Virus record (IMG/VR): IMGVR_UViG_3300045988_089750
From: a virus
Reading direction: 5' to 3' (one strand)
DNA: 50,355 bases
In this document: piece by piece, positions 5,614 to 48,307 of the stretch
Numbering within the stretch: position 1 is the first letter of the stretch
How the letters are laid out: each line of letters starts with the position of its first letter
Position numbers and translations under genes: made by a program
Notes under the pieces: generated by a model
Seen by the model: the letters and a program-made list of their open reading frames with translations, nothing else
The model's database searches: none
What the model was told of the DNA's origin: nothing

Positions 5614-5630
5614 CGTATTAGTTTAATACG
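5614..5630. promoter_or_regulatory. 17-bp palindrome site 1 (CGTATTA-GTT-TAATACG, perfect)
   Basis: Intergenic, 9 bp upstream of a minus-strand TATTTTTG -7 box (5597..5604) and 39 bp upstream of ATG 5575. Confidence 0.6.
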
Positions 5631-5723
5631 TCGTGAAATACTCGTGAAGTGTTTGTTTAGCCGAAGCCGTGAAATTCGGCGTTACAACACTTCTATTTAA
5701 TGCCTTGCGCCGTGATGCATGGC

Positions 5724-8700
5724 TTATTCTCTTATGTTCAATAAATAGGCGTAATATCCGCTGCTTCCGTCCCAAACTAAAAGAAACTCGCGTATGTCGC
5801 CCGCCGCCATGTTCCACTTTCCGGTTTCGTTTCCTGCGTTGTTGTTCATACGGTACGGGTAGTAGTTGCTATCCATAGCGTTGCCGCCGGAACTGTTCTT
5901 TACGAATGTATTACGCCCGCAAACATACCCGGTCTGCGTGCTCGTTCTATCACAAATAATAGTAATCCTTACGGCAAAGGCTGTATAATTACTAATGCCT
6001 AACACCGTACAAATGGAGTCGCGGCGAGGTAGCCCTATGCCGCTATTACTGTAAATGAAGCGCGGCATTAACTTGAATAGCGTAGGCTTGGTAGCGTCGC
6101 CCGGTGTAAGGCAGGTATTTACGGAAGGCAAAAGTTTTGATATACCGTAATCCGCTACGTAGCTGTCGCAAACTATCGCGCCTTTGCTCACTATACCCAA
6201 ATTAACCAGCGCGCCGGACGCTTCAATAAGTAGCCCGTAGTTAGTTCCATAGCTGTTTGGTGTCTTGTTGGTAAAACGTCCAACGCCGACCAACCCGGTA
6301 GAAGCTGGTAATACGTTCGTTCCAATGGAAGCCCAGCGGTAAGAGTCCGAGAACTTTATAAAACTGCTAAGCAATGCTAAACCGCTTCCGCTTGTGTCGC
6401 CGGATGAAGCCGCTACACCTATTCGTCCGCTTGCTATCGCAAAGCCGCCAATACTTCCGGCGTTTGCGTTGATTGTTCCCGTTATAGTTCCTTTCGTAGC
6501 TACAAAGCTACCGTCTTGCAGTACGCGGAAAGGTGCGGTAGCCCGGTTTCCCTTGCTTGCTCCAGCCCAAAACCTTACGCTTGTGTCGGCTGTGCCTTCC
6601 CCTGTTATTCCTGCTTTTATACTCGCGTCGCTACCTGCAAGCTGAACCGTTCCGGCTGTTACTATGCCACCGTCTATCGTGGTTTGGGTGTTATCGTAAT
6701 AAACGGCTTCCACCCAATCGTTAGCGACGTAAGAACCGGAAGTACGTTTAGTTATGCAACGTTTTAGTATTCCGTCTGTTTTTCCACCCGTCAGCCAAAG
6801 GTCGCCTATGTCATACGGTGGTTTTGGCTGGGTTACAAATACCTGCCTTTTCCCGTCCGCTGTGTCCTGTGCCTTGCTTGCTGCCGTGTATGCGTCTATC
6901 GCCTTTTGGTCTTCTATCGTAGTCCATGAATATGTAGAACCGGAAACGGTATAGCGTTTCAACAACTTTGTTGATGAACTGTACCACATATCGCCTACGT
7001 GCGCCTTCTTTAGTGCCGTAGTCGTCCAATTAGCCGCCGGGTCGGAAGATTGGAACCAGCTTTCTATCTTGCCGTCTATCTGTGTTGTAAGGTCGTTTAC
7101 GGTTGGCGTGAAGTTGTTGTTTATAAAGTTGGTTAGCCCGGTGTCGTCCGTATATTTGGAAGCCTTTACCCAATCTACGGAATTATAAGAACCGGAAGTG
7201 CGGGCGGTCTTGCATCGCATGATGTCGCCCGTACTGCCTTGTACCCATAAATCGCCCACGTCGTAAGGCGTTGTAGGTTGTGCCACGAAAATACGCCGTT
7301 TTGTCCCGGCAAGTTTTAACGCGTCGTTAGCAAGTGCCAACGCTTGCGCTACTTCGCTGTCTTGTAGTTCCTGCCAACTGTAAGTAGAACCGTTTTTTAC
7401 GAAACGGAAAACTTTACCCGTTGAAGTGTTATAGAAAAGGTCGCCTAAATGTTCATCTTTCAGCGCGGTTGTGTTCCAATCCTTCGCGGGCGCGTTTGTC
7501 AGCGTCGGGTCGTATGTTTCAAAGAACTGCTCTATTTGCCCGTCTAATTGCGCTTGTATTTCGTTCAGAATACCAGGCAGGGTATTATTTATGTAGTTCT
7601 TTGTTTCGTTCGCTATCTGGTCGAGGTCTGAAACGTTCTTTGTCGTTCCGTCGCTGCTTACAAAGTGAATAACGCCGCCTATTTCGTCGTTGTCGAGGTC
7701 GAAGTAGCATTTACCGCCACCGCTGCTCTCTATCCTTCCGGTACGGATGAAACGCCCGTTTATGGTACTGCTCCCGTAAGTCAATGAAACAAGCCTACCG
7801 GGGTTCTTCCCGTTCGTATCTGTAACAACCGAATTAAGAACCCCTACAAGGAAATTGTAATAGCCCGCTTCCGCTTCTACCGTCTTAGCCGTAGCGGATA
7901 GTATAATAGTTCCACTATCCCCGTTTTTAGGACATTTTGCGTAGATGTAATACGCCGTAGCGGATGTTAGGTTAGTAAATGTTGCCGAAGAAAGCCCCCA
8001 CAACTTCAATGCGTCCGGTTCTATCGCGTAATGAACCAATGTACCGGAAGAAACGTAAAGGCTATTAGGGTTGCCGCCATAGTTCGGCTGGAACGTAATG
8101 TTTTGCAGTGTGAACTGTGTGCTTTTAGCCCCAACGCTTAACATCTGCGTTTCAATGGAAAGCGGCTTTATCTTCTCGCTGTAATAGTCGCCTTCGGGGT
8201 CGAATACCATGTTTAGAAGTTCCTGCGTAGCCAGCCAACGGCGGCGCGCCCTTGCGGGGTCTGCCAGCTTGTTTATGGTAATAACTTCGTTCAAGTCCTC
8301 TATTTCGTTTAGAACGCGTACGGTAGTGCTTTTCGTTACGGTGTCACTTAACGTTATGTCGTAGCTATGCCGTTTTAGCAGATCGCGCTCTATGCGAGTA
8401 ATCCTTACCGCCTTATTTACGCCTATCTGTTCGTCCTCAATCGGTATGAAATCGCCTACGTGCAGTATTTCGGTTTCCACTTCTTTACCCCAAAGCGAAA
8501 TAAAGAAGCCTTCGGTTAGTGCAAGTTTGTAACTTACTTGCGGCTGTGTCATGGTTTCAAAATCCTTTGTCCCGGCTTCCTTCAAATCCTTTTCGGCTTC
8601 CGTTATGTATTCCTGCGGTAACTGAATATCTAAAATGCTGTATTTGTCGCCTACGCTTATCTGAAACGCGCCGGAAGTTTCGGAAGGGAATACCGTACCG

Positions 8701-9749
8701 TTTTCGTCTTGGAACTTGTTTATTACAAACTTATGCGTTCCATGCTCGTAGCTGTGCAGGTCAAACTCGTAGCCTGCAAGTTGCCCGCTTTCAAACTTAA
8801 TCTTCGCGTTTGTTCCTTCTATCAAATATTTTGTCGTTTTCCCGTCCGCTTCTTTCGCGTTAAGGTCAAACATCGTATTGTCTATGAAGGTAATCTTATC
8901 CGTACCCAATGCCGTAACCGTGCCTATACGTCCCGGTTTGATGTTGGTATAGTTCTTCTCGTTTTCCTTTATCCCGTAGGCGGCTATTGATTCCGCATCT
9001 TCCAAATAGGAAGTAAGGCGCGTAGTTCCGGGAAGGCATAGCTTTGTATGCCCGTAGTTCTTGCCTAAATTCTCCGTTCCGCCGTAAATGAAAAGGCGGT
9101 TTGTTATTCCGGCATTGTTCACGTTGGCGCGGCTAAGTTGGTACAGACCACGCCCGCGTCCGTACTTCAACGTGAAAGTATGCGTTATTCCCGCTTTAGC
9201 TTTTATATTTAACGTGTTGGTCTTCCCGTCGCTGGTTATCTCAAATTCTACGCCGTAGTTGGTACAGTGTTCCTGCAATGCCGCCAGACAATTCTTTTCG
9301 GTGGCTGTAAAGTTTGTGTACTTCGTATCTTTGGGATAGCTCCCCAGCTTCCAAAGTCCCGGATATACGCGGCTTATGTTATACATCAATACGTCCAAAT
9401 GCCCGCCCAAATCCGAGTAGAACGTATCGCCGTAGCAATCTTCGGGCAAATGATACTGAACGTCTATAAGGTCGTATTGCGCCCCTTCTAAGGTCAGTTC
9501 GTAGGTATAGTTCCTTTCGCCGTTCTTGGTTATTTGCGGGAGCTGGTTAAGTTTGTACTTCTTACCGTATATCAGCGTGGTATCGCCTATCATCAAATCC
9601 AAAGGCGTAGCGGTGGTTATGGTAACGCTTACCACGTCCTCGGAAAGCAAGGCGATTTTTTGTGTCGCCTTGCTTACTGCGCTTATATTCTTCTTACTGA
9701 ATAACGGTGTTCTGCTTCCGTCGGCATGATTGATAATTATTTGCGTCAT
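5724..9749 (-). CDS. Large tail fibre / tail-associated (Tal-like) host-specificity protein
   Basis: 1341 aa, located directly after the Dit-like gene. The N-terminus resembles siphovirus tail-tip proteins. It contains an internal tandem duplication of about 150 aa and a Gly/Ser-rich distal region. Confidence 0.75.
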   Translation of the reverse strand: MTQIIINHADGSRTPLFSKKNISAVSKATQKIALLSEDVVSVTITTATPLDLMIGDTTLIYGKKYKLNQLPQITKNGERNYTYELTLEGAQYDLIDVQYHLPEDCYGDTFYSDLGGHLDVLMYNISRVYPGLWKLGSYPKDTKYTNFTATEKNCLAALQEHCTNYGVEFEITSDGKTNTLNIKAKAGITHTFTLKYGRGRGLYQLSRANVNNAGITNRLFIYGGTENLGKNYGHTKLCLPGTTRLTSYLEDAESIAAYGIKENEKNYTNIKPGRIGTVTALGTDKITFIDNTMFDLNAKEADGKTTKYLIEGTNAKIKFESGQLAGYEFDLHSYEHGTHKFVINKFQDENGTVFPSETSGAFQISVGDKYSILDIQLPQEYITEAEKDLKEAGTKDFETMTQPQVSYKLALTEGFFISLWGKEVETEILHVGDFIPIEDEQIGVNKAVRITRIERDLLKRHSYDITLSDTVTKSTTVRVLNEIEDLNEVITINKLADPARARRRWLATQELLNMVFDPEGDYYSEKIKPLSIETQMLSVGAKSTQFTLQNITFQPNYGGNPNSLYVSSGTLVHYAIEPDALKLWGLSSATFTNLTSATAYYIYAKCPKNGDSGTIILSATAKTVEAEAGYYNFLVGVLNSVVTDTNGKNPGRLVSLTYGSSTINGRFIRTGRIESSGGGKCYFDLDNDEIGGVIHFVSSDGTTKNVSDLDQIANETKNYINNTLPGILNEIQAQLDGQIEQFFETYDPTLTNAPAKDWNTTALKDEHLGDLFYNTSTGKVFRFVKNGSTYSWQELQDSEVAQALALANDALKLAGTKRRIFVAQPTTPYDVGDLWVQGSTGDIMRCKTARTSGSYNSVDWVKASKYTDDTGLTNFINNNFTPTVNDLTTQIDGKIESWFQSSDPAANWTTTALKKAHVGDMWYSSSTKLLKRYTVSGSTYSWTTIEDQKAIDAYTAASKAQDTADGKRQVFVTQPKPPYDIGDLWLTGGKTDGILKRCITKRTSGSYVANDWVEAVYYDNTQTTIDGGIVTAGTVQLAGSDASIKAGITGEGTADTSVRFWAGASKGNRATAPFRVLQDGSFVATKGTITGTINANAGSIGGFAIASGRIGVAASSGDTSGSGLALLSSFIKFSDSYRWASIGTNVLPASTGLVGVGRFTNKTPNSYGTNYGLLIEASGALVNLGIVSKGAIVCDSYVADYGISKLLPSVNTCLTPGDATKPTLFKLMPRFIYSNSGIGLPRRDSICTVLGISNYTAFAVRITIICDRTSTQTGYVCGRNTFVKNSSGGNAMDSNYYPYRMNNNAGNETGKWNMAAGDIREFLLVWDGSSGYYAYLLNIRE

Positions 9750-20437: not shown

Positions 20438-21148
20438 TTAAACTTCTTTGCCCGTTAAGGCTGTCTTACTCTCGGTCTGCGCTTTGATGTAGTCTGCTAC
20501 GCCACTGCTTACGCCTTCTTTGTTCACGGCTCCAAAAATCGGCTTATCGTGTCCTTGCAGTCCTGCGTCTGCGCGTTCTTGCGCTAAGGCTGCGATGTCG
20601 CCTTTCGCTTCGGTCAAGTAGCTGTTGAAATCTTCGTCGCTCGCAAAGGTGTTAGCCCGGTCGAAGTTCTTTAACATCACGTCGCGGGTCTTTCCCTCAA
20701 TCTTCGCGTTGTCCAATTCCGCTACAAATAGTTCACGTCGCGAAGCAGCCGCCTTATTTGCGTTAATCTCGGTAATGCTACTTTGCACGCCCGAAAGTTT
20801 TTCATCAATAAGTTTGCTGATCGCGTCAAGCGTTATCGCTCCGCCTGCTGGTGGCGTGGGTGGTGTCGGCGGTGTTTGCTTTCCCTTTTCCACTAAATCG
20901 TACTTTTCTTTCAGTCCGTTTTCGTAGGTTTGGTTCGCTTTGCTTATTTCCGCGTCTGCGACCTTACGCCAATCTGTTACGTACTGGCTAACTTTGTCGG
21001 CGGTAAGTTTATCTACAACTCCGTTAGCTTCTTCTATGGTAGCGACTTGTAAGCCGATAGCGGCTGCCAAATGCTGTAACCCATCTTTGCGCACGCCTTG
21101 GAACTTTGCCACAAGTAGTGCTAAGATTTGTTCTTGTAATTCGTTCAT
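20438..21148 (-). CDS. Scaffolding protein
   Basis: Helical, charged, with a PPTPPTPP linker. It lies immediately upstream of the decoration and capsid genes. Confidence 0.65.
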   Translation of the reverse strand: MNELQEQILALLVAKFQGVRKDGLQHLAAAIGLQVATIEEANGVVDKLTADKVSQYVTDWRKVADAEISKANQTYENGLKEKYDLVEKGKQTPPTPPTPPAGGAITLDAISKLIDEKLSGVQSSITEINANKAAASRRELFVAELDNAKIEGKTRDVMLKNFDRANTFASDEDFNSYLTEAKGDIAALAQERADAGLQGHDKPIFGAVNKEGVSSGVADYIKAQTESKTALTGKEV

Positions 21149-21170: not shown

Positions 21171-21178
21171 CAAAGGTA
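21171..21178 (-). promoter_or_regulatory. Bacteroides-type -7 box TACCTTTG upstream of the scaffold/capsid operon
   Basis: The reverse complement of CAAAGGTA matches TAnnTTTG, 23 bp upstream of ATG 21148. There is no TTTG -33 element. The 17-bp palindrome 21180..21196 occupies the spacer. Confidence 0.5.
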
Positions 21179-21179: not shown

Positions 21180-21196
21180 CGTATTAAGGTAATACG
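21180..21196. promoter_or_regulatory. 17-bp palindrome site 2 (CGTATTA-AGG-TAATACG, perfect)
   Basis: Directly abuts the TACCTTTG -7 box of the scaffold/capsid operon. Confidence 0.6.
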
Positions 21197-21389
21197 GATT
21201 TAAAAAATAGGAAGCAAACACTTCACCGAAACTTCCAATTTTGAAAAAGAGTAGGCGGTAAGAAATAGGCGTATAAAACCACTGCATTGCCTGTTCATTT
21301 GCCCGACATTGAAATTAATTAGCTTCTGCGTGTGTTTAGTAGTCGGTAATATGGACGCGCTTTAAATCGCTTCATTTCCCCTTTGCGTT

Positions 21390-21552
21390 TTTCTCTCGCG
21401 CACACCATTAAGAAGAAGAGAAAGATAATTATTAAATCATATCATTACATATCATATCAATGTTGTTTTCGGTTGTTTTCGCTTGTTTTTTCAACCCTTC
21501 GGTTGTTTCGGTTGAAAAATCAACCACCCGGTTGTTTTCGGTTGTTTTGGCT
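21390..21552. repeat. Origin-like iteron + AT-rich element, copy A (intergenic)
   Basis: About 90 percent identical to 37699..37873, with an exact 85-bp core (21441..21525 = 37763..37847). It has about six GTTGTTTT(C/G)G units, an inverted repeat GGTTGAAAAATCAACC and an AT-rich ATCATATCA tract. Confidence 0.85.
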
Positions 21553-22321: not shown

Positions 22322-22572
22322 TGGAAGTAGAAACTATTTTGGGCTTTATTGCGCTTGCGTGCTTTGTACTGGCTCTTTTTATTGTTCTTGTGGCTCGTAT
22401 AGTAAGCGCAAGGCAGAACAGAGCTAAAAGGAAAGAAAAAGCCGAAGAACTAACCCGTATCTATGTTAATACTGCTATACAACGGTTGAAAGTTTCCGGG
22501 CTTGAACGCCGGACGCGTTGGCTTGATGAAGATAGTAGGTTGTCGGGAAAGAAGGAAGACGAATTAAAGTAA
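22321..22572 (+). CDS. Small single-pass membrane protein
   Basis: N-terminal TM helix (ILGFIALACFVLALFIVLVA) followed by a basic/acidic tail. The start codon immediately follows the upstream stop codon (TAA-ATG). Confidence 0.6.
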   Translation: MEVETILGFIALACFVLALFIVLVARIVSARQNRAKRKEKAEELTRIYVNTAIQRLKVSGLERRTRWLDEDSRLSGKKEDELK

Positions 22573-22576
22573 TACG
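22560..22576. promoter_or_regulatory. 17-bp palindrome site 3 (CGAATTA-AAG-TAATACG, 1 mismatch)
   Basis: Overlaps the stop codon of 22321..22572. Confidence 0.5.
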
Positions 22577-24077: not shown

Positions 24078-24096
24078 GGGGTAATAAGCCCCTTAG
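24074..24096. terminator. Bidirectional hairpin between convergent genes
   Basis: Stem CTAAGGGG (24074..24081) / CCCCTTAG (24089..24096). It overlaps both stop codons. Confidence 0.5.
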
Positions 24097-26456: not shown

Positions 26457-26473
26457 CGTATTATTTTAATACG
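26457..26473. promoter_or_regulatory. 17-bp palindrome site 4 (CGTATTA-TTT-TAATACG, perfect)
   Basis: 9 bp downstream of the portal stop. On the minus strand it is followed by TTTTCTTTG. Confidence 0.6.
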
Positions 26474-31563: not shown

Positions 31564-31577
31564 ATTAAATCGTTTTT

Positions 31578-31605
31578 AATAAAAAAGGGCGTGGTCTTTT
31601 ACGCC
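31578..31605 (-). terminator. Rho-independent terminator
   Basis: On the minus strand: GGCGT-aaaagacc-ACGCC followed by CTTTTTTATT. Confidence 0.6.
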
Positions 31606-31740
31606 GCGCCCCGCTTCGGCTCTTAGCCGTTGCTATCAGCTATATGATGCTTTTGTAAAGCCTGAATAAACAAACCAACAACGGCGGTAACGCGACCCGA
31701 CGAACAATCCCCGTTATTGCCCTCGTTTTGGTTTTGCTGC

Positions 31741-31781
31741 AAAAATAAAAGGTTTAGCGTATTAAAGTGATACGCTAAACC
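31741..31781 (-). terminator. Rho-independent terminator at the end of the early operon (contains palindrome site 31758..31774)
   Basis: 11-bp stem GGTTTAGCGTA (31751..31761) / TACGCTAAACC (31771..31781), followed on the minus strand by TTTTATTTTT. Confidence 0.7.
31758..31774. promoter_or_regulatory. 17-bp palindrome site 5 (CGTATTA-AAG-TGATACG)
   Basis: Forms the core of the terminator hairpin 31751..31781. Identical to site 8. Confidence 0.55.
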
Positions 31782-31811
31782 CTAAAATACTTCGCCAAAA
31801 CTTCACGCTCC

Positions 31812-35766: not shown

Positions 35767-36021
35767 TTATCCTATTGCGCTATGATAGGCTACGTGTATC
35801 ACGTCGTACTGCTTTCCTACTATCGCAAATTGAAAATTACTATCTGCGTTCGGTTGAACGTTGGGAATGCTTATAAATTCGTAAGTGTACCCTTCAACGG
35901 TATAGGCTGCTATTTCCCGGTTGCTTTTGGCGAAGGATGTTAAGCTGCTTACCAATAGCTTATAATAGTCTTCTCCGAAAGCCTTTATTAGCTTGCTCTT
36001 ATTTCTTAATGCAAATCTCAT
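35767..36021 (-). CDS. Hypothetical protein
   Basis: 84-aa ORF in the early operon. Confidence 0.5.
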   Translation of the reverse strand: MRFALRNKSKLIKAFGEDYYKLLVSSLTSFAKSNREIAAYTVEGYTYEFISIPNVQPNADSNFQFAIVGKQYDVIHVAYHSAIG

Positions 36022-36031: not shown

Positions 36032-36048
36032 CGTCTTATTTTAATACG
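36032..36048. promoter_or_regulatory. 17-bp palindrome site 6 (CGTCTTA-TTT-TAATACG, 1 mismatch)
   Basis: Overlaps the stop of 36036..36644, 10 bp upstream of ATG 36021. Confidence 0.5.
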
Positions 36049-36644
36049 TCTTTTGGAACACTTAACTTTTTACTCAATAGGGTAGCAACCTTTTCGGCTG
36101 CTGCGCGAAACTCCTTGTTATACTTGTATTCGCTATCGTACCGCCGAAGGTAATAACATATCGTACTTTGGTCGTGTAAGGTTTCTTCTGCTATATGCTG
36201 GGTATTCTCTCCGCGTTTTTTACAATGATGCGCGTAAATCATCCGGGCGTAAACGTGCCAGCGGTTACGGCTGTCTTCTGAAATGGAAGCGAAGCTAACC
36301 CCCATAGCGGTAAGTATAGCCGTTTTTATATCCCGGTGTTTGGGTGGTTTCTCGTAGTTTATAATCAGTCCCAAACCTTCGGCTATGTATAGTTCCAGCC
36401 CTGCGCCCGTGCTGCGTTCCCAATTAGAAAGCATATAAATTGCGTCGCAATCGAGCAGAAGGCGAATATCTACTTTCATTTGTTCCTGCCAGCGCGAACC
36501 CGGCTTTAATTCATACCGCAATGGGTTTACAACCTCGTAACCCTTTGCTCTTAGTTCCGCTTCCGCTTTGCTGAACTTTTCCGCGTATTCGGCTACCGGA
36601 AGTCCGGTTATTTGCCCGCTTATATACACTTTGTGCTTCTTCAT
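36036..36644 (-). CDS. DUF4406 (nucleoside 2-deoxyribosyltransferase-like) domain fused to a DnaA domain-IV-like HTH
   Basis: The N-terminal KVYISGQITGLP...DAIYMLSNWERSTGAGLE resembles DUF4406. The C-terminal VYARMIYAHHCKKRGENTQHIAEETLHDQSTICYYLRRY resembles the DnaA C-terminal DNA-binding pattern. Confidence 0.5.
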   Translation of the reverse strand: MKKHKVYISGQITGLPVAEYAEKFSKAEAELRAKGYEVVNPLRYELKPGSRWQEQMKVDIRLLLDCDAIYMLSNWERSTGAGLELYIAEGLGLIINYEKPPKHRDIKTAILTAMGVSFASISEDSRNRWHVYARMIYAHHCKKRGENTQHIAEETLHDQSTICYYLRRYDSEYKYNKEFRAAAEKVATLLSKKLSVPKDVLK

Positions 36645-36747: not shown

Positions 36748-37464
36748 CTATCGCGGCGTTAGCTTTGTTAGTCTTGGTCGGTAACTTGAATTATCAAAGC
36801 CTATAAGGTCGAACATCTCTACAAATCGGTCGGCTACACGAACCCCGTAACGCTTGGCTATATCTTCGTCGCCTTCCAAGTTTGAGGTTATAATCGTAAA
36901 TAGCTGGCGGTCGTAACGATGGTATAGCAAATCTACCAACGGGCTAACCTCGTTTCCCCAAACCTTTAGGCTTGCTGGTTCTGTCCCTACGTCATCAATG
37001 CAAAGAAGCTCGGTATTCTTCAAATCCGCTAAAAGTTCCTGCTTTTCGCCTTTTGCAGCTTCTGTAAGTGCGGAAGCTGGAATAAAGGAAACTCCTTTAC
37101 GCTCAAATGATATATCGCTGTGGTAAATCGTGTTTATTAGCTGGGAAATTGCACGCGCTAATGTTGTCTTTCCGCATCCGGGTGTTCCGTATATGAATAA
37201 CCCCGGTTTCATGCTTTCGCCAACGAGCCAACGCGCCGCCATTGTAAGATGCTGCCTTGTCGCTTCGTCTTCTTGGTAAGAATAGCCCCGGTTTTCAACT
37301 TGGAAACGGTAACATTCGCGTAGCATGGCGGGCACGTCCTGCGTATAACGGTCAATCTTAAAGCGTGCTACGGCGGGGCTTCTTTTGCGTAGCAGGTTCG
37401 CAAATGCCACTATATCTATCCGTTGTATCGGTTGCTCCTGCTTTTTGTTCTCTGTTGTTCCCAT
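36748..37464 (-). CDS. DnaC/IstB-like AAA+ helicase loader
   Basis: Walker A GTPGCGKTT and Walker B LLCIDDVG. The start is uncertain: ATG 37464 overlaps the upstream gene by 107 nt, and the alternative is ATG 37326. Confidence 0.75.
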   Translation of the reverse strand: MGTTENKKQEQPIQRIDIVAFANLLRKRSPAVARFKIDRYTQDVPAMLRECYRFQVENRGYSYQEDEATRQHLTMAARWLVGESMKPGLFIYGTPGCGKTTLARAISQLINTIYHSDISFERKGVSFIPASALTEAAKGEKQELLADLKNTELLCIDDVGTEPASLKVWGNEVSPLVDLLYHRYDRQLFTIITSNLEGDEDIAKRYGVRVADRFVEMFDLIGFDNSSYRPRLTKLTPR

Positions 37465-38218
37465 TGTCTTTCCTTATTTTAATTCTTAGATGATTAATCA
37501 AATGCCGCGCCCATTCGGTATAATTTATGTGGGTATCTCCGGTTAGTTCCCATTCGTCTATAACTTCTTCGGCTTCCTTGCGCAATCGTTCGGGAGTGAC
37601 ATAAAGCTGCATACAAATGGTTTCTATCTGCGCCCTTTTGTTTTCGCTGAAAAATTCGGTTAGAAACTTACGGTTTTCGGTTTCCTTTCCGTTTGTACTT
37701 TCTCTCTCGCGCGCACCATCAAGAAGAACAGGAGAATGAGAATTATTATTAATCATATCAACATCATTACATATCATATCAATGTTGTTTTCGGTTGTTT
37801 TCGCTTGTTTTTTCAACCCTTCGGTTGTTTCGGTTGAAAAATCAACCGCCCGGTTGTTTGGGTTGTTTTGGCTTGTTTCCTCGGTTTCCGTATTCTTTTT
37901 CTTCTTTCGTGCGTTCTGATTACCTTTAGGCGCGCCCCCTAATTTGCCGTTAGCTTTATTCAACTGCACTGTTTCCGCATAACGCTTGTTATCAGATTCA
38001 AGACGTTTTCGGATGGGTGCAAATGCTATCCTAACGGTTTTGTTCGCCGTCATTGCTTCCAAATCTTCCGCAGCCTTCGTCCGTATAGCTTCGTTTTCGC
38101 TCTCTAATTGGTTATAGGCTCTAATTGCGCGGAATAACATAGCCGTTTCTTCGTCGTCAAGTTCATCAAGCACTGAAAGCAAATCCATATATAATACGAA
38201 TGAATTTTTATCGCCCAT
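37358..38218 (-). CDS. Replisome organizer / replication initiator-like protein (contains the iteron array)
   Basis: The N-terminal FVLYMDLLSVLDELDDEETAMLFRAIRAY resembles phage replisome-organizer N-terminal domains. It lies upstream of the helicase loader. The low-complexity linker (about aa 116-173) is encoded by the iteron element. Confidence 0.6.
   Translation of the reverse strand: MGDKNSFVLYMDLLSVLDELDDEETAMLFRAIRAYNQLESENEAIRTKAAEDLEAMTANKTVRIAFAPIRKRLESDNKRYAETVQLNKANGKLGGAPKGNQNARKKKKNTETEETSQNNPNNRAVDFSTETTEGLKKQAKTTENNIDMICNDVDMINNNSHSPVLLDGARERESTNGKETENRKFLTEFFSENKRAQIETICMQLYVTPERLRKEAEEVIDEWELTGDTHINYTEWARHLINHLRIKIRKDNGNNREQKAGATDTTDRYSGICEPATQKKPRRSTL
37699..37873. repeat. 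Origin-like iteron + AT-rich element, copy B (inside the replisome-organizer gene)
   Basis: Same GTTGTTTT(C/G)G iterons, GGTTGAAAAATCAACC inverted repeat and ATCATATCA AT-rich tract as 21390..21552. Confidence 0.85.
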
Positions 38219-44769: not shown

Positions 44770-44770
44770 A

Positions 44771-45470: not shown

Positions 45471-45755
45471 TTATTTCTTTTTGTTGTCCGCTGCCAGCTT
45501 TAACGCTAAATCAGCGTCAATAATCAGTAGCGCGCCTACTTGCGTTATCGCTTCATCAATCCGTCCGGAAGCCTTCAACCGCGCTGCTGTTGTCTTGGAA
45601 CAACCCAACAGCATTGCAAGCCCTTTCAAGCCGTACACGTAACGCTTTGCCGATTTGGGCTTTTCCGGTTTCTGTGCTGAAACTTCCATACGTTCGCCTA
45701 TCGCGTCCAGAAATTCGCCGAGCGTAAGGTCTATAATTCTTTTCTTAGCATCCAT
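45471..45755 (-). CDS. Helix-turn-helix DNA-binding protein (excisionase/MerR-like)
   Basis: YVYGLKGLAMLLGCSKTTAARLKASGRIDEAITQVG is a typical HTH segment of Bacteroidales mobile-element DNA-binding proteins. Confidence 0.55.
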   Translation of the reverse strand: MDAKKRIIDLTLGEFLDAIGERMEVSAQKPEKPKSAKRYVYGLKGLAMLLGCSKTTAARLKASGRIDEAITQVGALLIIDADLALKLAADNKKK

Positions 45756-45758: not shown

Positions 45759-45980
45759 CTAACTGTTTTCGTCGTCTTTAATGTCCGGCACTGTCTTTGC
45801 CGCTACCTTTATCGAAAGGGCGAAATTCGCGACTACAAGGAATACCGCCCATATAGGCGCGGTTTCGGTGTCAATGCTTAGAAGAATAAAGGAAACGGCG
45901 ACCCAAGCAAGGGTAAGCCAGTTATACCACTTTAGCGGCTTCGTAAATTCAATGCCGAGGGCTTTAAAAATCTTAGTCAT
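45759..45980 (-). CDS. Small membrane protein
   Basis: Two hydrophobic helices (WLTLAWVAVSFILL; IWAVFLVVANFAL). The start is set at ATG 45980; the ORF track extends to 46043 and overlaps the upstream gene. Confidence 0.5.
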   Translation of the reverse strand: MTKIFKALGIEFTKPLKWYNWLTLAWVAVSFILLSIDTETAPIWAVFLVVANFALSIKVAAKTVPDIKDDENS

Positions 45981-46383
45981 AACTGCAAACTTCAAAAGGG
46001 TTATAATCGTTTTCGCCTTTGCGTCTTCCCGTCGTTTTGGCAATCCGTGTTATCTGCGCGTGTCTTCCTACTCTGAAAAAATCGCCGTTTCCGGTAAGTT
46101 CCTTCGGGAGTATAATTAGAAGAAGGGCTACCGCTACGAATGTACGTTTCAACGGGTCAAGGCTTACCGGAACATTATGTTTTGTGCAGAACCACCAAAC
46201 GCAAAGTTCCGTAGCCTTCTGTATGCCTACTTTCGCGTAGATGTTCCGGGCTGTGTTCTCTACTGTGCGGGTCGAAATAAACAGCATGTCCGCTACTTCT
46301 TTCTTGGAAGCTCCCCAGGCCAGCAAGTGCGCTACCTCGGTTTCCCGTCTGCTTAGTTCTACCTTTAACCTCATACGTCCCAA
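45973..46383 (-). CDS. LuxR/GerE-type HTH regulator with C-terminal hydrophobic segment
   Basis: LSRRETEVAHLLAWGASKKEVADMLFISTRTVENTARNIYAKVG matches the LuxR-type HTH pattern. Confidence 0.7.
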   Translation of the reverse strand: MGRMRLKVELSRRETEVAHLLAWGASKKEVADMLFISTRTVENTARNIYAKVGIQKATELCVWWFCTKHNVPVSLDPLKRTFVAVALLLIILPKELTGNGDFFRVGRHAQITRIAKTTGRRKGENDYNPFEVCSYD

Positions 46384-46610
46384 ATATTGGCTGTTATACC
46401 GTATTTGTTGAATACGCCTTCTACGGCTTTAGCCTGCGTTACTTTAGGCTCTATCTTTCCGTCCCGGTATGCGTAGAAGCTATTCCGGTTATTTATGCCC
46501 AAAGCAGCTTTTATTTCCGTTACCGCTATTTTGTAATCGCCTACTCGTAATTGGTTCAACCCGCTAAGGAAGCCCCTGCTTTTTTTCTTATTTTCTGTTG
46601 TTACTACCAT
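46371..46610 (-). CDS. Hypothetical small protein (possible Cro-like regulator)
   Basis: 79-aa ORF early in the leftward operon. The HTH assignment is tentative. Confidence 0.45.
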   Translation of the reverse strand: MVVTTENKKKSRGFLSGLNQLRVGDYKIAVTEIKAALGINNRNSFYAYRDGKIEPKVTQAKAVEGVFNKYGITANIWDV

Positions 46611-46763
46611 AATTGTAAAATTTAAAATTCATAGTGCGCGGGGGAAGGTTCGCCCTTCGTACGCCCGTAGCGTCCCGCGCGCGGTCTGTTTCCGCAGTCA
46701 TCGGTTTATAGCCTTTACAAAGGGGATTCCTTTTCCGCTGGCTTATATATAGTTTCTCTGATT

Positions 46764-46780
46764 TGTATTAAAGTAATACG
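46764..46780. promoter_or_regulatory. 17-bp palindrome site 7 (TGTATTA-AAG-TAATACG, 1 mismatch)
   Basis: Immediately downstream of the stop of 46781..47344. Confidence 0.5.
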
Positions 46781-47344
46781 CTATTCGGAAGAAGAAGCGT
46801 TACCTATCTGTTTGTAGTAGCAGGTATCTTCCATGCTGTCCATGTAGTTAAGCATGCGCAAAAGCCTTTGCAGGTCTTCTGGGCTTAATTCCCGTTCTTC
46901 TTCGTTGTTGTCGTCGCTATGCTTGCCGAATATCCTATGCTTTTGTATGTACGCTTCCGTAAACTCCTTTTGCATCCGCTTCATGTCCTTTGTAAGCTGT
47001 TTGTAGTGCCAATCGTACAAAGCCTGCAATTCTACGTACTGCATTTTGGTTAATTCAACGGTAACGTATCTTCGGTGCTGGTGGTAGCTCATCCGTTTTT
47101 CGTTTGTAACGTTGAAATAGCACTGGGTAAACAAAGTAAATCCGTACCCGTTTTCCTTTACGTTGAAGGTGTACTGCTGTTTTTCTTCCTGTGCTTCTAT
47201 TATTTCTTCCAACGAAACGCCGTATTTAGCTAATAGTTGGTCTAACAAACGCTTTGCGTTCAGTGCTTCGCCTTTCTCGCCGCGTTCCGCAAGGGCTTGT
47301 AGTTTCTGAACCTTGCTTCTAATGCTTTCAAAATCTTTCTTCAT
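46781..47344 (-). CDS. DUF2786-like hypothetical protein
   Basis: The N-terminal IRSKVQKLQALAERGEKGEALNAKRLLDQLLAKYG resembles the DUF2786 pattern. Confidence 0.5.
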   Translation of the reverse strand: MKKDFESIRSKVQKLQALAERGEKGEALNAKRLLDQLLAKYGVSLEEIIEAQEEKQQYTFNVKENGYGFTLFTQCYFNVTNEKRMSYHQHRRYVTVELTKMQYVELQALYDWHYKQLTKDMKRMQKEFTEAYIQKHRIFGKHSDDNNEEERELSPEDLQRLLRMLNYMDSMEDTCYYKQIGNASSSE

Positions 47345-47585: not shown

Positions 47586-47625
47586 ATAGCTTTTATAAAT
47601 TTCTGTAAATTAGCGTGTTTTTGTC

Positions 47626-47657
47626 ATTGCTAAGTGTTCGCTTTTTGCTTACCTTTG
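47626..47657 (+). promoter_or_regulatory. Rightward promoter candidate (ATTG-N20-TACCTTTG) for the repressor-like gene
   Basis: TACCTTTG at 47650..47657 matches TAnnTTTG. The -33 element matches 3 of 4 positions. Confidence 0.5.
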
Positions 47658-47679
47658 CAACTGAACAACTAACACAATG

Positions 47680-47711
47680 CAAATGTATAGTAAAAGCATA
47701 CAATATGCAAA
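47680..47711 (-). promoter_or_regulatory. Leftward early promoter (TTTG-N20-TACATTTG, consensus)
   Basis: On the minus strand, TTTG is at 47711..47708 and TACATTTG at 47687..47680. Confidence 0.65.
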
Positions 47712-47766
47712 CTAAAAGTGTTCATATTTTTAGCTGAAAGCCGATTTTTAACTTTTAGAAACAGTT

Positions 47767-48198
47767 ATGTTTATGGAAACAAGTGTAAAAGAGCGACTTA
47801 AACAATTTATAGATACGCTAAATATTAGCGAAAGGGAATTTTGTAGGCGCATTGGCGTGTCTTCCTCTTATGTTATGTCTATAAAAAAGTCTATTCAACC
47901 AGATAAAATGCAAGCTATTAGCATACATTTTCCGGAGCTTAATCCGCTTTGGCTTTTGCTGGGTCAAGGGGAAATGTTGTTGTCTGACGGAAAGAAGGAA
48001 GGCGAACAACGGCAAAATACGGGCGGGTTGCCTTCTTCCGAACTGTTGGCTAAGTTGCTGGAAGAAGCCAATAACGAAAAGGCGCGTTTACTTTCAATTA
48101 TAGAAAGCCAGCAGCGTACAATAGAAAGCCTTACGGAATTAAACAAAAAAGCCAATGCCCAGACGGTGGAACGTGCTGGATGTGCAAATGCCGTTTAG
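47767..48198 (+). CDS. CI-like repressor (XRE-type HTH)
   Basis: KERLKQFIDTLNISEREFCRRIGVSSSYVMSIKK is an HTH segment, and the NPLWLLLGQGEM motif is typical of Bacteroidales phage repressors. The gene is divergent from the early operon. Confidence 0.7.
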   Translation: MFMETSVKERLKQFIDTLNISEREFCRRIGVSSSYVMSIKKSIQPDKMQAISIHFPELNPLWLLLGQGEMLLSDGKKEGEQRQNTGGLPSSELLAKLLEEANNEKARLLSIIESQQRTIESLTELNKKANAQTVERAGCANAV

Positions 48199-48290
48199 TA
48201 TTTGGTCGTAAAGTTCCGAAATTCTAAAAAGGCTTCCATAACATAGTATCACACGCACGTACTTATATTATAATAATATCATACAATCAC

Positions 48291-48307
48291 CGTATTAAAG
48301 TGATACG
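48291..48307. promoter_or_regulatory. 17-bp palindrome site 8 (CGTATTA-AAG-TGATACG)
   Basis: Intergenic between the repressor gene and 48424..48609. Confidence 0.55.

What the first reader, a model, noticed from the sequence alone, without database searches (positions are those of the whole stretch)
5614..48307. A 17-bp palindrome CGTATTA-N3-T(A/G)ATACG occurs eight times, always at gene or operon boundaries
The sites are 5614, 21180, 22560, 26457, 31758, 36032, 46764 and 48291 (each 17 bp). Three are perfect and five have one mismatch. Oriented consistently, all read CGTATTA-A(A/G)(G/A/C)-T(A/G)ATACG. With 14 specified positions, the chance expectation in 50 kb is far below one site. None lies inside a gene body. 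Two sit next to minus-strand -7 promoter boxes that lack a -33 element (21171..21178 and 5597..5604). Several directly follow or overlap stop codons (22560, 26457, 36032, 46764). One forms the core of a strong terminator hairpin (31751..31781). This fits an operator for a dimeric phage regulator that marks transcription-unit boundaries. It also fits an RNA hairpin used for termination, antitermination or processing.
Basis: seen in the sequence. Interest (0 to 1): 0.65.

Follow-up and report, generated by a model that had tools for sequence, protein, structure and literature searches.

The report
Repeated operator palindrome gating phage modules
A 17-bp palindrome occurs eight times in this 50-kb gut Bacteroidales temperate phage and at the same gene junctions in many relatives, and it is most likely the DNA binding site of one phage regulator that controls the three late promoters and marks the other module boundaries.

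Summary
There are eight copies of CGTATTA-N3-T(A/G)ATACG, with none expected by chance. Six lie wholly in the 6.4% of non-coding DNA and two straddle stop codons.

The motif is a lineage hallmark. All eight positions carry it in diverged relatives. Among phages that share the late genes, it tracks the early-gene module rather than the host taxon.

Three sites (21180, 31758, 5614) sit 1, 10 and 9 nt upstream of perfect Bacteroidetes -7 boxes (TAnnTTTG), where the -33 element would be. They head the head-tail, packaging and tail-fibre/DGR operons.

A distant syntenic Porphyromonas phage has exactly three copies of a symmetrically changed palindrome, TGTTTTA-N3-TAAAACA, at those same three promoters.

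RNA-hairpin readings fail in general. Seven of eight hairpins are weak, mismatches are not wobble-biased on the sense strand, and the loop is not strand-specific. Only 31758 is extended by covarying flanks into a real terminator.

Best reading: a double-stranded DNA operator for a phage-encoded dimeric regulator. I lean towards a steric gate (promoter occlusion plus roadblocks); a P1/Mu-like late activator is the main rival. The binding protein is unidentified. The CI-like and LuxR-like proteins are disfavoured.

This is a new member of a known kind.

The parts
5614..5630 (.). Perfect palindrome, promoter-type. It lies 9 nt upstream of the minus-strand -7 box 5604-5597, ahead of the 86-aa gene 5315-5575 and the tail-fibre/DGR module.
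   Evidence: An orthologous palindrome lies between homologues of 5315-5575 and 5724-9749 in 21 distinct contexts. Gaps in relatives are 7-9 nt.
5597..5604 (-). -7 promoter box TATTTTTG of the tail-fibre/DGR operon. There is no TTTG -33 element.
5635..5654 (+). Inverted copy of the GAAGT element (GAAATACTCGTGAAGTGTTT), next to palindrome 5614.
   Evidence: The motif cACTTCacg is conserved in relatives.
21180..21196 (.). Perfect palindrome, promoter-type. It lies 1 nt upstream of the minus-strand -7 box 21178-21171 of the head-tail operon (first gene 20438-21148).
   Evidence: 28 distinct orthologous contexts.
21171..21178 (-). -7 box TACCTTTG of the head-tail operon.
21216..21235 (-). Tandem GAAGT element GAAGTTTCGGTGAAGTGTTT, at a fixed 45-46 nt from the -7 box.
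22560..22576 (.). Palindrome with one mismatch. It overlaps the stop codon of the plus-strand gene 22321-22572, inside the variable plus-strand cluster.
   Evidence: Conserved in a few relatives.
26457..26473 (.). Perfect palindrome between the portal gene (stop at 26483) and the minor-head/Bxa-like gene (start at 26360). No adjacent -7 box.
   Evidence: About 12 distinct orthologous contexts.
31758..31774 (.). Palindrome with one mismatch, promoter-type. It forms the tip of a terminator hairpin and lies 10 nt upstream of the -7 box 31747-31740 of the packaging operon (ParB-methyltransferase, TerS, TerL, portal).
   Evidence: 16 distinct orthologous contexts.
31749..31783 (-). Extended hairpin (-18 kcal/mol) followed by a T run: the terminator of the upstream early/middle unit. 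Its flanking arms covary in relatives.
   Evidence: Covarying flanks ggtttag/ctaaacc, ggctttgt/acaaagcc, gggcttc/gaaagccc, aaagaag/cttcttt.
31740..31747 (-). -7 box TATTTTTG of the packaging operon. It overlaps the terminator's T run.
31785..31804 (-). Tandem GAAGT element GAAGTTTTGGCGAAGTATTT, 46 nt from the -7 box.
36032..36048 (.). Palindrome with one mismatch. It overlaps the stop codon of 36036-36644 and ends 10 nt before the ATG of 35767-36021. The downstream gene differs among relatives.
   Evidence: 19 distinct contexts. In distant homologues the site lies 1-17 nt after the stop, so it is not a coding artefact.
46764..46780 (.). Palindrome with one mismatch. It abuts the stop codon of 46781-47344 and lies upstream of the RNA-like leader and the operon of the 79-aa and LuxR-like genes.
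   Evidence: 25 distinct contexts. In L223, L229 and L232 it lies 3 nt before the ATG.
48291..48307 (.). Palindrome with one mismatch, between the CI-like gene (stop at 48198) and the 61-aa / 100-aa HTH / integrase genes. It also sits at the end of a small minus-strand unit.
   Evidence: 24 distinct contexts.
46371..46610 (-). Candidate binding protein: 79-aa protein with the invariant segment ALGINNRNS, read as HTH-like by eye only (no Pfam match). It is the first gene after palindrome 46764.
   Evidence: A 38% homologue is kept in the Porphyromonas phage.
48594..48896 (+). Candidate binding protein: 100-aa HTH protein (phrog_9710) downstream of palindrome 48291 and next to the integrase gene. 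Its homologue is annotated 'repressor protein' in PP754928.1.
45471..45755 (-). Candidate binding protein: DUF3853 protein with a conserved SKTTAARLKASG segment, read as an HTH helix by inspection.
36036..36644 (-). Candidate binding protein: fusion of a nucleoside-2'-deoxyribosyltransferase-like domain (DUF4406) with a DnaA-domain-IV-like DNA-binding domain. A palindrome follows its gene in most relatives.
45973..46383 (-). LuxR/GerE-type HTH protein with a hydrophobic helix. It is disfavoured as the universal binding protein because it is absent from the Porphyromonas phage, which keeps a variant of the system.

Best explanation
The palindrome is a double-stranded DNA operator. Its half-site is CGTAT(T/C)A, its spacer is 3 bp and A/T-rich, and its half-site centres are 10 bp apart. 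It is recognised by one phage-encoded dimeric DNA-binding protein made from the early or lysogeny region.

Its conserved core job is at the three late promoters (packaging, head-tail, tail-fibre/DGR). There it occupies the DNA from about -16 to -41, immediately upstream of a perfect -7 box, where a -33 element would otherwise be.

I commit to a steric-gate mechanism. The bound dimer occludes RNA polymerase at these otherwise consensus -7 promoters. At the five non-promoter copies (stop-codon or pre-ATG positions at 46764, 36032, 26457, 22560 and 48291) it acts as a roadblock or insulator between modules. One protein would then keep each lytic module shut until it is removed.

Shown:
- the sites, their statistics and their synteny;
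- the promoter coupling;
- that the motif is restricted to the lineage carrying this early-gene module;
- the symmetric specificity change in a distant relative;
- the lack of RNA-level selection.

Inferred:
- that a protein binds the sites;
- that regulation is negative;
- which protein binds.

My estimates:
- Protein-bound DNA operator: about 0.75.
- Purely negative gate, the committed mechanism, which is the confidence figure given: about 0.4.
- Activator or dual-function switch: about 0.3.
- Binding protein, given an operator: 79-aa protein about 0.3; 100-aa HTH about 0.25; DUF3853 about 0.15; DUF4406-DnaA-DBD fusion about 0.15; LuxR-like or other about 0.15.
For: 1. Statistics and placement: eight sites against zero in 100 shuffles. 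All lie in non-coding DNA or straddle stop codons in a genome that is 93.6% coding.

2. Conservation independent of the motif: TerL-anchored loci keep the palindrome at syntenic positions. Loci anchored on the LuxR-like gene hold 146 sites in 1.04 Mb. All eight junctions recur in 5 to 28 distinct contexts each. Information content is high only in the 14 arm positions and is about zero in the flanks.

3. Promoter coupling: of 214 distinct contexts, 61 have TAnnTTTG 1-10 nt downstream, with peaks at 1 and at 7-10 nt, and only 5 have it at 11-37 nt. No TTTG -33 element is possible at the canonical distance.

4. Flexible placement argues for occlusion. The gap ranges from 1 to 10 nt. In 19 promoters the tandem GAAG element stays 45-46 nt from the -7 box while the palindrome shifts by 8-9 nt between them.

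5. A trans-acting phage factor is implied. Relatives that share the head and packaging genes but carry a different early region lack the motif, while host taxa overlap between the two groups.

6. The Porphyromonas phage PP754928.1, syntenic with TerL at 44% identity, has exactly three perfect copies of TGTTTTA-N3-TAAAACA at the three orthologous promoters. Both arms changed in the same way at every site.

7. The signal is at the DNA level, not the RNA level. On the sense strand 26 sites are perfect, 14 have wobble only and 57 are mismatched; on the antisense strand the counts are 26, 25 and 46. Hairpins are -1.8 to -5.5 kcal/mol for seven of eight sites. The spacer is 70% A/T and not strand-specific.

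8. Copies 2-3 nt before an ATG or overlapping a stop codon leave no room for a promoter, so only a blocking role fits those sites.

9. The early promoters in the switch region also lack a canonical -33 element, so -7-only promoters may be intrinsically active in this phage.
Against: No binding or expression data exist, so the sign of regulation is an inference.

Most characterised temperate phages control late genes positively. A palindrome in place of the -35 element is the signature of activator-dependent late promoters (P1 Lpa, Mu C/Mor).

The distant Porphyromonas relative has the palindrome only at the three late promoters. That fits a dedicated late activator at least as well as a repressor.

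A repressor devoted to late promoters, on top of a separate P2/186-like immunity switch, is unusual and needs its own inactivation route.

The binding protein is unidentified. Every remaining HTH candidate is co-inherited with the motif, so phyletic patterns do not separate them.

I have not measured how much promoter activity a Bacteroides promoter keeps without a -33 element.
Confidence: 0.4

Rival explanations
1. The palindrome is a late-promoter activator site or the site of a dual-function switch protein. An early-made phage dimer binds it and recruits or remodels host RNA polymerase at three late promoters that lack a -33 element, as P1 Lpa, Mu C/Mor and P2 Ogr do at their late promoters. 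The other copies would let the same protein shut off early and lysogenic transcription by roadblock, as phi29 p4 both activates late and represses early promoters.
For: Three sites sit exactly where the -33 element should be, next to consensus -7 boxes of the three late operons.

The distant Porphyromonas relative keeps only these three sites.

A copy lies upstream of the early operon that encodes the 79-aa candidate, which would give negative feedback.

P1 late genes need the phage activator Lpa (PMC8198154). From my own knowledge, not checked here, P1 late promoters carry an inverted repeat centred near -22 in place of a -35 element, which is close to the gap-1 geometry seen here.
Against: The distance from palindrome to -7 box varies from 1 to 10 nt with no helical phasing, and it slides within a fixed frame between the GAAG element and the -7 box. 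Known activators of this type need fixed spacing.

Five of the eight sites are not at promoters.

The -7 boxes are perfect consensus, and the early promoters also lack a -33 element.
Confidence: 0.3
2. The palindrome acts as an RNA (or single-stranded DNA) hairpin. The copies would be intrinsic terminators, processing sites or antitermination signals at operon ends, and the sequence would be conserved because an RNA-binding protein recognises the stem.
For: Site 31758 is a genuine terminator-like hairpin with covarying flanks and a T run.

Sites 22560, 26457 and 36032 are followed by short T runs on the transcribed strand.
Against: Seven of the eight hairpins are only -1.8 to -5.5 kcal/mol, and 36032 and 46764 fold no better than shuffled sequence.

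59% of diverged sites carry a non-pairing mismatch on the sense strand, and the sense strand is not favoured over the antisense strand. At position 6 the counts are U.G 25 against C.A 21.

The orthologue CGTATCACTATAAGACG conserves two broken pairs across relatives.

Loop triplets are not strand-specific.

The promoter-type copies lie upstream of the transcription start of the unit they head.

There is no Rfam match.
Confidence: 0.08
3. The sites have no regulatory role of their own. They would be recombination linkers, a mobile short palindrome at mosaic junctions, or binding sites for a genome-organising or replication protein, such as membrane tethering by the LuxR-like protein with its hydrophobic helix, or origin-type binding by the DnaA-DBD fusion.
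For: Gene content changes right at some sites. The partner downstream of 36036-36644 varies, and the RNA leader after 46764 is present or absent.

The DnaA-domain-IV-like fusion protein is encoded in the replication module, and a palindrome follows its gene.

The LuxR-like protein carries a conserved hydrophobic helix.
Against: The tight, two-peaked coupling to -7 boxes and the retention of exactly the three promoter copies in a distant relative point to transcription.

The sites have no terminal repeats and no target-site duplications.

The positions are syntenic rather than scattered.

The LuxR-like gene is absent from the Porphyromonas phage.
Confidence: 0.1
4. The palindrome is a binding site for a host (Bacteroidales) transcription factor that the phage exploits, for example an SOS or global regulator.
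For: The motif occurs in phages assigned to several Bacteroidales families.
Against: Among phages that share the late genes, presence of the motif follows the phage early-gene module and not the host taxon. Muribaculaceae and Bacteroides hosts occur in both the motif-positive and the motif-negative groups.

The published Bacteroidetes SOS boxes are GGA-N5-TCC and CTAA-N5-TTAG (PMC8565304), which do not match.

The Porphyromonas phage has a variant specificity at all of its sites.

Most exact matches found in the partial IMG/VR scan, 84 of 114, lie in relatives of this phage.
Confidence: 0.05

Closest known systems
Stoperators and operators of Cluster A mycobacteriophages (L5 gp71, TipsytheTRex repressor; PMC9283540, PMC6550527)
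   Same: Many copies of one conserved site are spread over a temperate siphophage genome, mostly in short intergenic gaps. One copy set lies at promoters and others lie inside operons, where the bound protein stops elongation.
   Different: Stoperators are 13-bp asymmetric sites bound by a monomeric immunity repressor and are orientation-dependent. Here the site is a 17-bp palindrome with no orientation. The immunity (CI-like) repressor is probably not the binding protein, and three of the eight copies are fused to late promoters. No homology is implied.
17-bp repeat of Cluster O mycobacteriophages, TGTTCGG-N3-CCGAACA (PMC4351075)
   Same: The geometry is identical: 7-3-7, with invariant arms and a variable central triplet. 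There are many copies, mostly at gene boundaries, and the authors predict binding by a dimeric protein. The function is unknown there too.
   Different: The sequence and the phage lineage differ. [quoted passage not shown] Those phages are not obviously temperate.
phiC31 conserved inverted repeats (17-bp CIR operators bound by the c repressor; from my own knowledge, papers not in the library)
   Same: A 17-bp inverted repeat is present in highly conserved copies in intergenic regions across a temperate phage genome, associated with promoters and with repressor autoregulation.
   Different: The CIRs control early promoters and are bound by the immunity repressor. Here the core targets are late promoters, and the immunity switch uses other repeats.
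Activator-dependent late promoters with a dyad element in place of -35: P1 Lpa (PMC8198154; palindrome near -22 from my own knowledge), Mu C/Mor, P2 Ogr / 186 B
   Same: Several late operons each carry a good -10-type element, no upstream hexamer and a shared palindrome. The switch region here is also P2/186-like, with face-to-face promoters and direct-repeat operators.
   Different: In those systems the dyad sits at a fixed distance and all copies are at promoters. Here the distance varies from 1 to 10 nt and five of the eight copies are not at promoters.
Lambda-type 17-bp operators for dimeric HTH repressors
   Same: The sites are 17 bp long with dyad symmetry, half-sites one helical turn apart, and graded natural variants of the half-site.
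   Different: Lambda operators cluster at the immunity region. These sites are dispersed over 43 kb and are absent from the switch region of this phage.

Membership tests
Dimeric-HTH DNA operator (generic, lambda / phiC31 CIR type) | Dyad-symmetric site with half-sites about one helical turn apart, conserved arms and a tolerant spacer | tested here: met
   The site is 7-3-7 with 10 bp between half-site centres. Arm positions are 74-99% conserved across 143 sites. The spacer is variable and 70% A/T. Flanks carry no information.
Dimeric-HTH DNA operator (generic, lambda / phiC31 CIR type) | The specificity changes symmetrically, and at all sites of a genome together, when the regulator diverges | tested here: met
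   PP754928.1 has three perfect copies of TGTTTTA-N3-TAAAACA at orthologous promoters. L144 and L150 use TGTATTA..TAATACA.
Dimeric-HTH DNA operator (generic, lambda / phiC31 CIR type) | Demonstrated binding by a cognate protein | not testable with these tools
   This needs EMSA, DAP-seq or ChIP. The candidates were only narrowed.
Stoperator system (Cluster A mycobacteriophages) | Asymmetric 13-bp site that is orientation-dependent relative to transcription | tested here: not met
   The site is palindromic. Variant half-sites and spacers show no sense/antisense bias.
Stoperator system (Cluster A mycobacteriophages) | Bound by the immunity repressor | tested here: inconclusive
   The switch region uses direct repeats AAGCATACAA and not the palindrome. 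The CI-like recognition helix varies while the motif stays invariant. No CI-like homologue was found in L046 or in the Porphyromonas phage. This argues against the immunity repressor but is not a binding test.
Stoperator system (Cluster A mycobacteriophages) | Copies inside operons that block elongation | not testable with these tools
   The positions are compatible: copies overlap a stop codon or lie 2-10 nt before an ATG. Blocking itself was not measured.
Intrinsic (Rho-independent) terminator | Stable G+C-rich hairpin followed by a U tract on the transcribed strand | tested here: not met
   Seven of the eight hairpins are -1.8 to -5.5 kcal/mol, and two fold no better than shuffles. Only 31758 qualifies, at -18 kcal/mol with a T run.
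Intrinsic (Rho-independent) terminator | Base pairing maintained by compensatory or wobble changes | tested here: not met
   Within the 17-mer, 57 of 97 sense-strand sites have non-pairing mismatches. Covariation is seen only in the arms that flank site 31758.
Activator-dependent late promoter (P1 Lpa, Mu C/Mor, P2 Ogr type) | Consensus downstream promoter element, no upstream hexamer, and a shared dyad element | tested here: met
   Three window sites, and 61 of 214 contexts in relatives, have TAnnTTTG 1-10 nt downstream and no TTTG at -33.
Activator-dependent late promoter (P1 Lpa, Mu C/Mor, P2 Ogr type) | Fixed distance and helical phase between the dyad and the core promoter | tested here: not met
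   Gaps are 1, 2, 3, 5, 6, 7, 8, 9 and 10 nt. The dyad slides within a fixed frame between the GAAG element and the -7 box.
Activator-dependent late promoter (P1 Lpa, Mu C/Mor, P2 Ogr type) | All copies lie at late promoters | tested here: not met
   Five of the eight window copies have no adjacent -7 box. All three copies in PP754928.1 do lie at the late promoters, two beside a perfect -7 box and 15241 beside TACCTTTA, one base off consensus.
Bacteroidetes SOS box (non-canonical LexA) | GGA-N5-TCC or CTAA-N5-TTAG palindrome | tested here: not met
   The sequences do not match (PMC8565304).
Known RNA family (Rfam 15) | Covariance-model match | tested here: not met
   There is no match at the gathering threshold in the window, nor at E <= 1 around 46764.

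The most novel reading that the evidence does not exclude
The palindrome could define a second regulatory layer, independent of the immunity repressor, in a very large group of gut and oral Bacteroidales temperate phages. One small phage protein would lock every module boundary (three late promoters plus intercistronic roadblocks), giving a palindromic analogue of stoperators.

In the most unusual version the binding protein is the fusion of a nucleoside-2'-deoxyribosyltransferase-like domain with a DnaA-domain-IV DNA-binding domain (36036-36644). That would be a previously undescribed kind of transcription factor, one that might couple nucleotide status or replication to late transcription.
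Probability: 0.15. Interest if true: 0.72.

Novelty: new member of a known kind. Interest (0 to 1): 0.5.

Why it matters
Temperate siphophages of Bacteroides, Phocaeicola, Muribaculaceae, Prevotellaceae and Porphyromonas are abundant in gut and oral microbiomes. I found almost nothing in the searchable literature on how they schedule transcription.

- This palindrome gives a sequence-level definition of their late regulon: three promoters that can be read directly from any genome of the lineage.
- It gives a short list of four testable candidate regulators.
- It names culturable lysogens in which to test them: Barnesiella sp. WM24, Paramuribaculum intestinale DSM 100749 and, for the variant operator, P. 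gingivalis ATCC 49417.
- If the gate model holds, the operator and its protein would be a compact, portable switch for Bacteroides genetics.
- The two natural specificities, CGTATTA and TGTTTTA, would offer orthogonal pairs.
- The motif is also a practical marker. It recognises this phage lineage and its module boundaries in metagenomes, and it marks where mosaic exchange happens.

Tried and rejected
1. Megablast of 22 kb of the window against INPHARED phages found no match. The nearest isolate by TerL, Bacteroides phage BF486P2 at 50% identity, has no motif above chance.

2. Host SOS box: rejected on sequence.

3. Rfam found nothing in the window or around 46764.

4. I searched for an alternative repeated palindrome in the motif-negative TerL relatives. 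Neither perfect 6-mer arms nor 7-N(2-4)-7 palindromes next to -7 boxes recur. The only case is one CACGCG-AG-CGCGTG 2 nt before a -7 box in L140.

5. Identifying the binding protein by presence and absence failed. The whole early module is co-inherited with the motif.

6. An apparent strand bias of the variant half-site CGTATCA, seen in the first relatives, disappeared in the larger set: 25 against 21.

7. The switch region was checked for the palindrome. It is absent in this phage. Only a GTAT-N9-ATAC element with different spacing and AAGCATACAA direct repeats are there.

8. A sequence search of 36036-36644 against PDB chains gave nothing useful. The fold search did.

9. A literature search for the motif strings returned only primer-type hits. 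I found no paper describing this element.

10. ParB-methyltransferase as the binding protein was rejected, because it is absent from most motif-positive relatives.

11. A tyrosine-recombinase core site was rejected on geometry, from my own knowledge: a 3-bp spacer is too short.

Full report
**1. What the window is**

Bases 1-99 are identical to 50257-50355. The window is therefore a circularly closed genome of 50,256 bp with an assembly overlap.

It is a temperate siphovirus-type phage of Bacteroidales. The annotated genes are:
- a CTnDOT-type tyrosine integrase at 48896-50203(+);
- a CI-like HTH protein at 47767-48198(+);
- a long minus-strand early region with a DnaC-like loader, SSB and a RusA-like protein;
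- ParB-methyltransferase, TerS, TerL, portal, a minor-head protein with a Bxa-like domain, the major capsid protein, the tape measure and tail proteins;
- a diversity-generating retroelement (DGR), with reverse transcriptase at 2289-3323 and its target tail protein at 3969-5384.

Identical TerL genes occur on roughly 50-kb contigs binned with Bacteroides and, at 98% identity, in a 179-kb Phocaeicola contig.

**2.

No shuffle of the window produced a single match. Three sites are perfect and five have one mismatch. Unpaired half-sites occur only at the chance rate.

With 93.6% of the genome coding, six sites are wholly non-coding and two overlap only the last 13 nt of a gene.

**3. The motif is a hallmark of a phage lineage**

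Of these, 84 encode proteins related to this phage, with nucleotide identities from 65 to 99%.

Because that sample was chosen through the motif, I also fetched loci through proteins.
- Around TerL in one genome per species, the palindrome is present at syntenic positions in every locus of 7 kb or more with TerL at 71% identity or higher, and in one at 44% (L121-L124, L145, L149, L151, L152, L154).
- It is absent from about 20 Bacteroidales loci with TerL at 55-66% identity and from 40 Firmicutes loci.
- Around the LuxR-like gene, 80 loci totalling 1.04 Mb hold 146 sites.

I mapped each site to the nearest homologues of window genes. All eight junctions recur in distinct sequence contexts:
- upstream of the head operon: 28
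- CI-like gene | 61-aa gene: 24
- upstream of the 79-aa gene: 25
- 86-aa gene | tail gene: 21
- after 36036-36644: 19
- upstream of the packaging operon: 16
- portal | minor head: about 12
- the 22560 position: 5

Across 143 distinct sites from protein-anchored loci the half-site is C(83%) G(99) T(95) A(91) T(97) T/C(74/22) A(95). The flanks carry essentially no information.

**4. Three copies are promoter elements**

The Bacteroides primary sigma factor uses a -7 box TAnnTTTG (PMC4747536). From my own knowledge it also uses a weaker -33 element, TTTG.

In the window, on the minus strand, the palindromes at 21180, 31758 and 5614 are followed after 1, 10 and 9 nt by TACCTTTG, TATTTTTG and TATTTTTG. 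About 21 nt further on, the first and third reach the start codons of the head-tail operon and of the tail-fibre/DGR operon.

The second heads the packaging operon through a 177-nt leader. That leader contains a further terminator-like hairpin at 31605-31588.

Across all loci, 61 of 214 distinct palindrome contexts have a -7 box 1-10 nt downstream (20 at 1 nt, 35 at 7-10 nt). Only 5 have one at 11-37 nt. The palindrome fills the place of the -33 element, and no TTTG is present at the canonical distance.

In one subgroup, which includes the window, a tandem element GAAGTTTYGGYGAAGTRTTT lies upstream at 21216-21235 and 31785-31804, and inverted at 5635-5654. In 19 distinct promoters its distance to the -7 box is 45-46 nt, whether the palindrome sits 1-2 or 9-10 nt from the box. 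The palindrome therefore slides inside a fixed promoter frame.

**5. A distant relative keeps only the promoter copies, with a changed specificity**

Porphyromonas gingivalis phage005b (PP754928.1) is syntenic with the window almost end to end: TerL 44%, capsid protein 59%, integrase 46%.

It has exactly three perfect copies of TGTTTTA-N3-TAAAACA:
- one between the Holliday-junction resolvase and the ParB-like gene;
- one 3 nt before TAGATTTG, ahead of the head operon;
- one 6 nt before TAAGTTTG, ahead of the homologue of the 86-aa gene.

These are the three promoter positions, and there are no copies elsewhere. Two of the seven half-site positions changed, symmetrically, in all copies. Phages L144 and L150 use TGTATTA..TAATACA.

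This is the behaviour expected of an operator that co-evolves with a dimeric protein. It also identifies the late promoters as the conserved core of the system.

**6. The factor is phage-encoded and comes from the early or lysogeny region**

L125 and L126 share TerS, TerL, portal and head genes with the window. They have a different early region and lack the palindrome at the orthologous head promoter. Motif-positive and motif-negative phages overlap in host taxa. The published Bacteroidetes SOS boxes are different sequences.

**7. It is not, in general, an RNA hairpin**

- Seven of the eight hairpins are -1.8 to -5.5 kcal/mol, and 36032 and 46764 fold no better than shuffles.
- I examined 97 diverged sites with co-directional flanking genes. 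The sense strand is perfect in 26, wobble-only in 14 and mismatched in 57. The antisense strand gives 26, 25 and 46. At position 6, U.G occurs 25 times and C.A 21 times.
- The site after 36036-36644 is conserved as CGTATCACTATAAGACG, which breaks two of the seven pairs.
- Spacer triplets are not strand-specific. They are 70% A/T, and position 8 is almost never G. That pattern fits DNA shape read-out.

The exception is 31758. There the arms outside the 17-mer covary in relatives (ggtttag/ctaaacc, ggctttgt/acaaagcc, gggcttc/gaaagccc, aaagaag/cttcttt) and a T run follows. At this position the operator has been built into a real terminator that insulates the packaging promoter from upstream transcription.

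**8. The five non-promoter copies**

- **36032.** It overlaps the stop codon of 36036-36644. In distant homologues the palindrome lies 1-17 nt after the stop and 2-3 nt before the next ATG, so it is not a coding artefact. The downstream gene differs among relatives.
- **46764.** It follows the stop codon of 46781-47344 and precedes the operon of the 79-aa and LuxR-like genes. In L223, L229 and L232 it lies 3 nt before the ATG.
- **A related case in other phages.** In a further subgroup (L257 and others) a degenerate copy lies about 27 nt downstream of the leftward early -7 box.
- **48291.** It lies between the 3' end of the CI-like gene and the 61-aa / 100-aa / integrase genes.
- **26457.** It follows the portal gene.
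- **22560.** It overlaps a stop codon in the plus-strand cluster.

None of the five has room for a promoter between the palindrome and the next gene. A bound protein at these positions can only block or insulate.

**9. Mechanism**

That the palindrome is a protein-bound DNA operator is well supported. I put it at about 0.75.

The sign of regulation is inferred. I lean towards a steric gate for four reasons:
- One mechanism then explains both promoter and non-promoter copies.
- The distance to the -7 box is not phased and slides within a fixed frame.
- The -7 boxes are perfect consensus.
- The early promoters of the switch region also lack a canonical -33 element.

The main rival is a late activator or a dual-function switch protein. 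Three points favour it:
- Most characterised temperate phages control late genes positively.
- P1, Mu and P2 late promoters carry a dyad element in place of the -35 element.
- The Porphyromonas phage has the site only at late promoters.

**10. Which protein binds**

- **CI-like protein: disfavoured.**
  - The switch region is P2/186-like, with face-to-face -7 boxes at 47650-47657(+) and 47680-47687(-) and direct repeats AAGCATACAA, and it has no palindrome.
  - The CI-like recognition helix varies while the motif stays invariant.
  - No homologue of it was found in L046 or in the Porphyromonas phage.
- **LuxR-like protein: disfavoured.** It has a nearly invariant HTH and family precedent for heptad inverted repeats. 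But it is absent from the Porphyromonas phage, which keeps the system.
- **Four candidates remain.** These DNA-binding candidates are shared by all motif-bearing lineages examined:
  - the 79-aa protein (46371-46610), with the invariant segment ALGINNRNS, which I read as HTH-like by eye only because Pfam gives no match;
  - the 100-aa HTH protein (48594-48896), annotated 'repressor protein' in PP754928.1;
  - the DUF3853 protein (45471-45755);
  - 36036-36644.
- **Structure of 36036-36644.** An AlphaFold model (pLDDT 90) shows a nucleoside-2'-deoxyribosyltransferase-like domain fused to a DnaA-domain-IV fold (TM 0.78-0.80 to 3pvp and 1j1v). Its DnaA-signature residues are less conserved than the motif, which counts mildly against it.

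**11. Comparison with known systems, and verdict**

The closest formal analogue is the unexplained 7-3-7 repeat of Cluster O mycobacteriophages. The closest mechanistic analogues are Cluster A stoperators, phiC31 conserved inverted repeats, and P1/Mu/P2-type late promoters.

The element meets the defining features of a dimer operator. It fails those of stoperators (asymmetry, orientation), of intrinsic terminators (stability, covariation) and of fixed-geometry activator sites.

I found no description of it in the searchable literature. I rate it a new member of a known kind, of moderate interest. The finding is solid and useful for a large, under-studied phage group. Its unusual potential depends on the identity of the binding protein.

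Noticed in passing
window 1-99 and 50257-50355: The two ends of the window are identical over 99 bp. The window is a circularly closed assembly of a 50,256-bp genome, not a fragment.
   Followed up: yes
window 21440-21551 and 37762-37873: A 112-bp direct repeat, nearly identical between its two copies, is packed with TTTCGGTTG iterons and CAACC..GGTTG hairpins. One copy lies inside gene 37358-38218(-), next to the DnaC-like loader, and looks like an origin. The other lies 240 bp from the head promoter.
   Followed up: partly
window 46611-46745 (minus strand): A conserved structured RNA-like leader lies between palindrome 46764 and the 79-aa gene. It has 29 predicted pairs, 9 of them with compensatory changes across 8 relatives. 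It is absent from some relatives, where the palindrome abuts the ATG. There is no Rfam match.
   Followed up: partly
window 21216-21235(-), 31785-31804(-), 5635-5654(+): A tandem element GAAGTTTYGGYGAAGTRTTT lies upstream of the late promoters. It is held 45-46 nt from the -7 box in 19 distinct promoters and is inverted at the tail-fibre promoter. It is probably a second factor's site or an UP-like element.
   Followed up: partly
window 47586-47766: The switch region has face-to-face -7 boxes at 47650-47657(+) and 47680-47687(-), and direct repeats AAGCATACAA that are conserved in relatives. This arrangement resembles the P2/186 immunity switch.
   Followed up: partly
window 48310-48411 (minus strand): A conserved small minus-strand unit starts at the -7 box TATTTTTG (48411-48404), runs about 90 nt, and ends in the hairpin GGCTTAAAACAGCC plus TTATTTT directly at palindrome 48291. 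It may be a small RNA antisense to read-through from the CI-like gene into the integrase genes.
   Followed up: no
window 36036-36644 (minus strand): This gene encodes a fusion of a DUF4406 (nucleoside-2'-deoxyribosyltransferase-like) domain with a DnaA-domain-IV-like DNA-binding domain. The model has pLDDT 90. The search returned 256 homologues at E <= 1e-5, and none of those listed is characterised.
   Followed up: partly
window 45973-46383 (minus strand): This LuxR/GerE-type HTH protein has a conserved hydrophobic helix of about 14 residues (KR-AFIAVxLLxxxxP-RE) and an Arg-rich tail. The helix may be a membrane anchor or an oligomerisation helix.
   Followed up: partly
window 2289-5384 (minus strand): A diversity-generating retroelement is present, with reverse transcriptase at 2289-3323 and its target tail protein at 3969-5384. 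It is driven by the palindrome-associated promoter at 5597-5604.
   Followed up: no
window 24093-26360 (minus strand): The minor-head (SPP1 gp7-like) protein carries a Bxa-type ADP-ribosyltransferase segment (phrog_16625).
   Followed up: no
window 31563-31740 (minus strand): The packaging promoter is followed by a 177-nt leader containing a terminator-like hairpin, GGCGTAAAAGACCACGCC plus CTTTTTTATT, at 31605-31588, just before the ParB-methyltransferase start codon. The layout resembles lambda PR'-tR'. It is not conserved in relatives that lack this gene.
   Followed up: partly
L140 16550-16590: A motif-negative relative has a different palindrome, CACGCG-AG-CGCGTG, 2 nt before a -7 box TAAATTTG. 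This is a single case and may be an analogous design with another regulator.
   Followed up: no
window 46400-46416: A near-palindrome, CGTATTTGTTGAATACG (2 mismatches, effectively 6-5-6), lies inside the 79-aa gene just before the start of the LuxR-like gene. It encodes the conserved peptide GVFNKYG and is probably a coding coincidence.
   Followed up: partly
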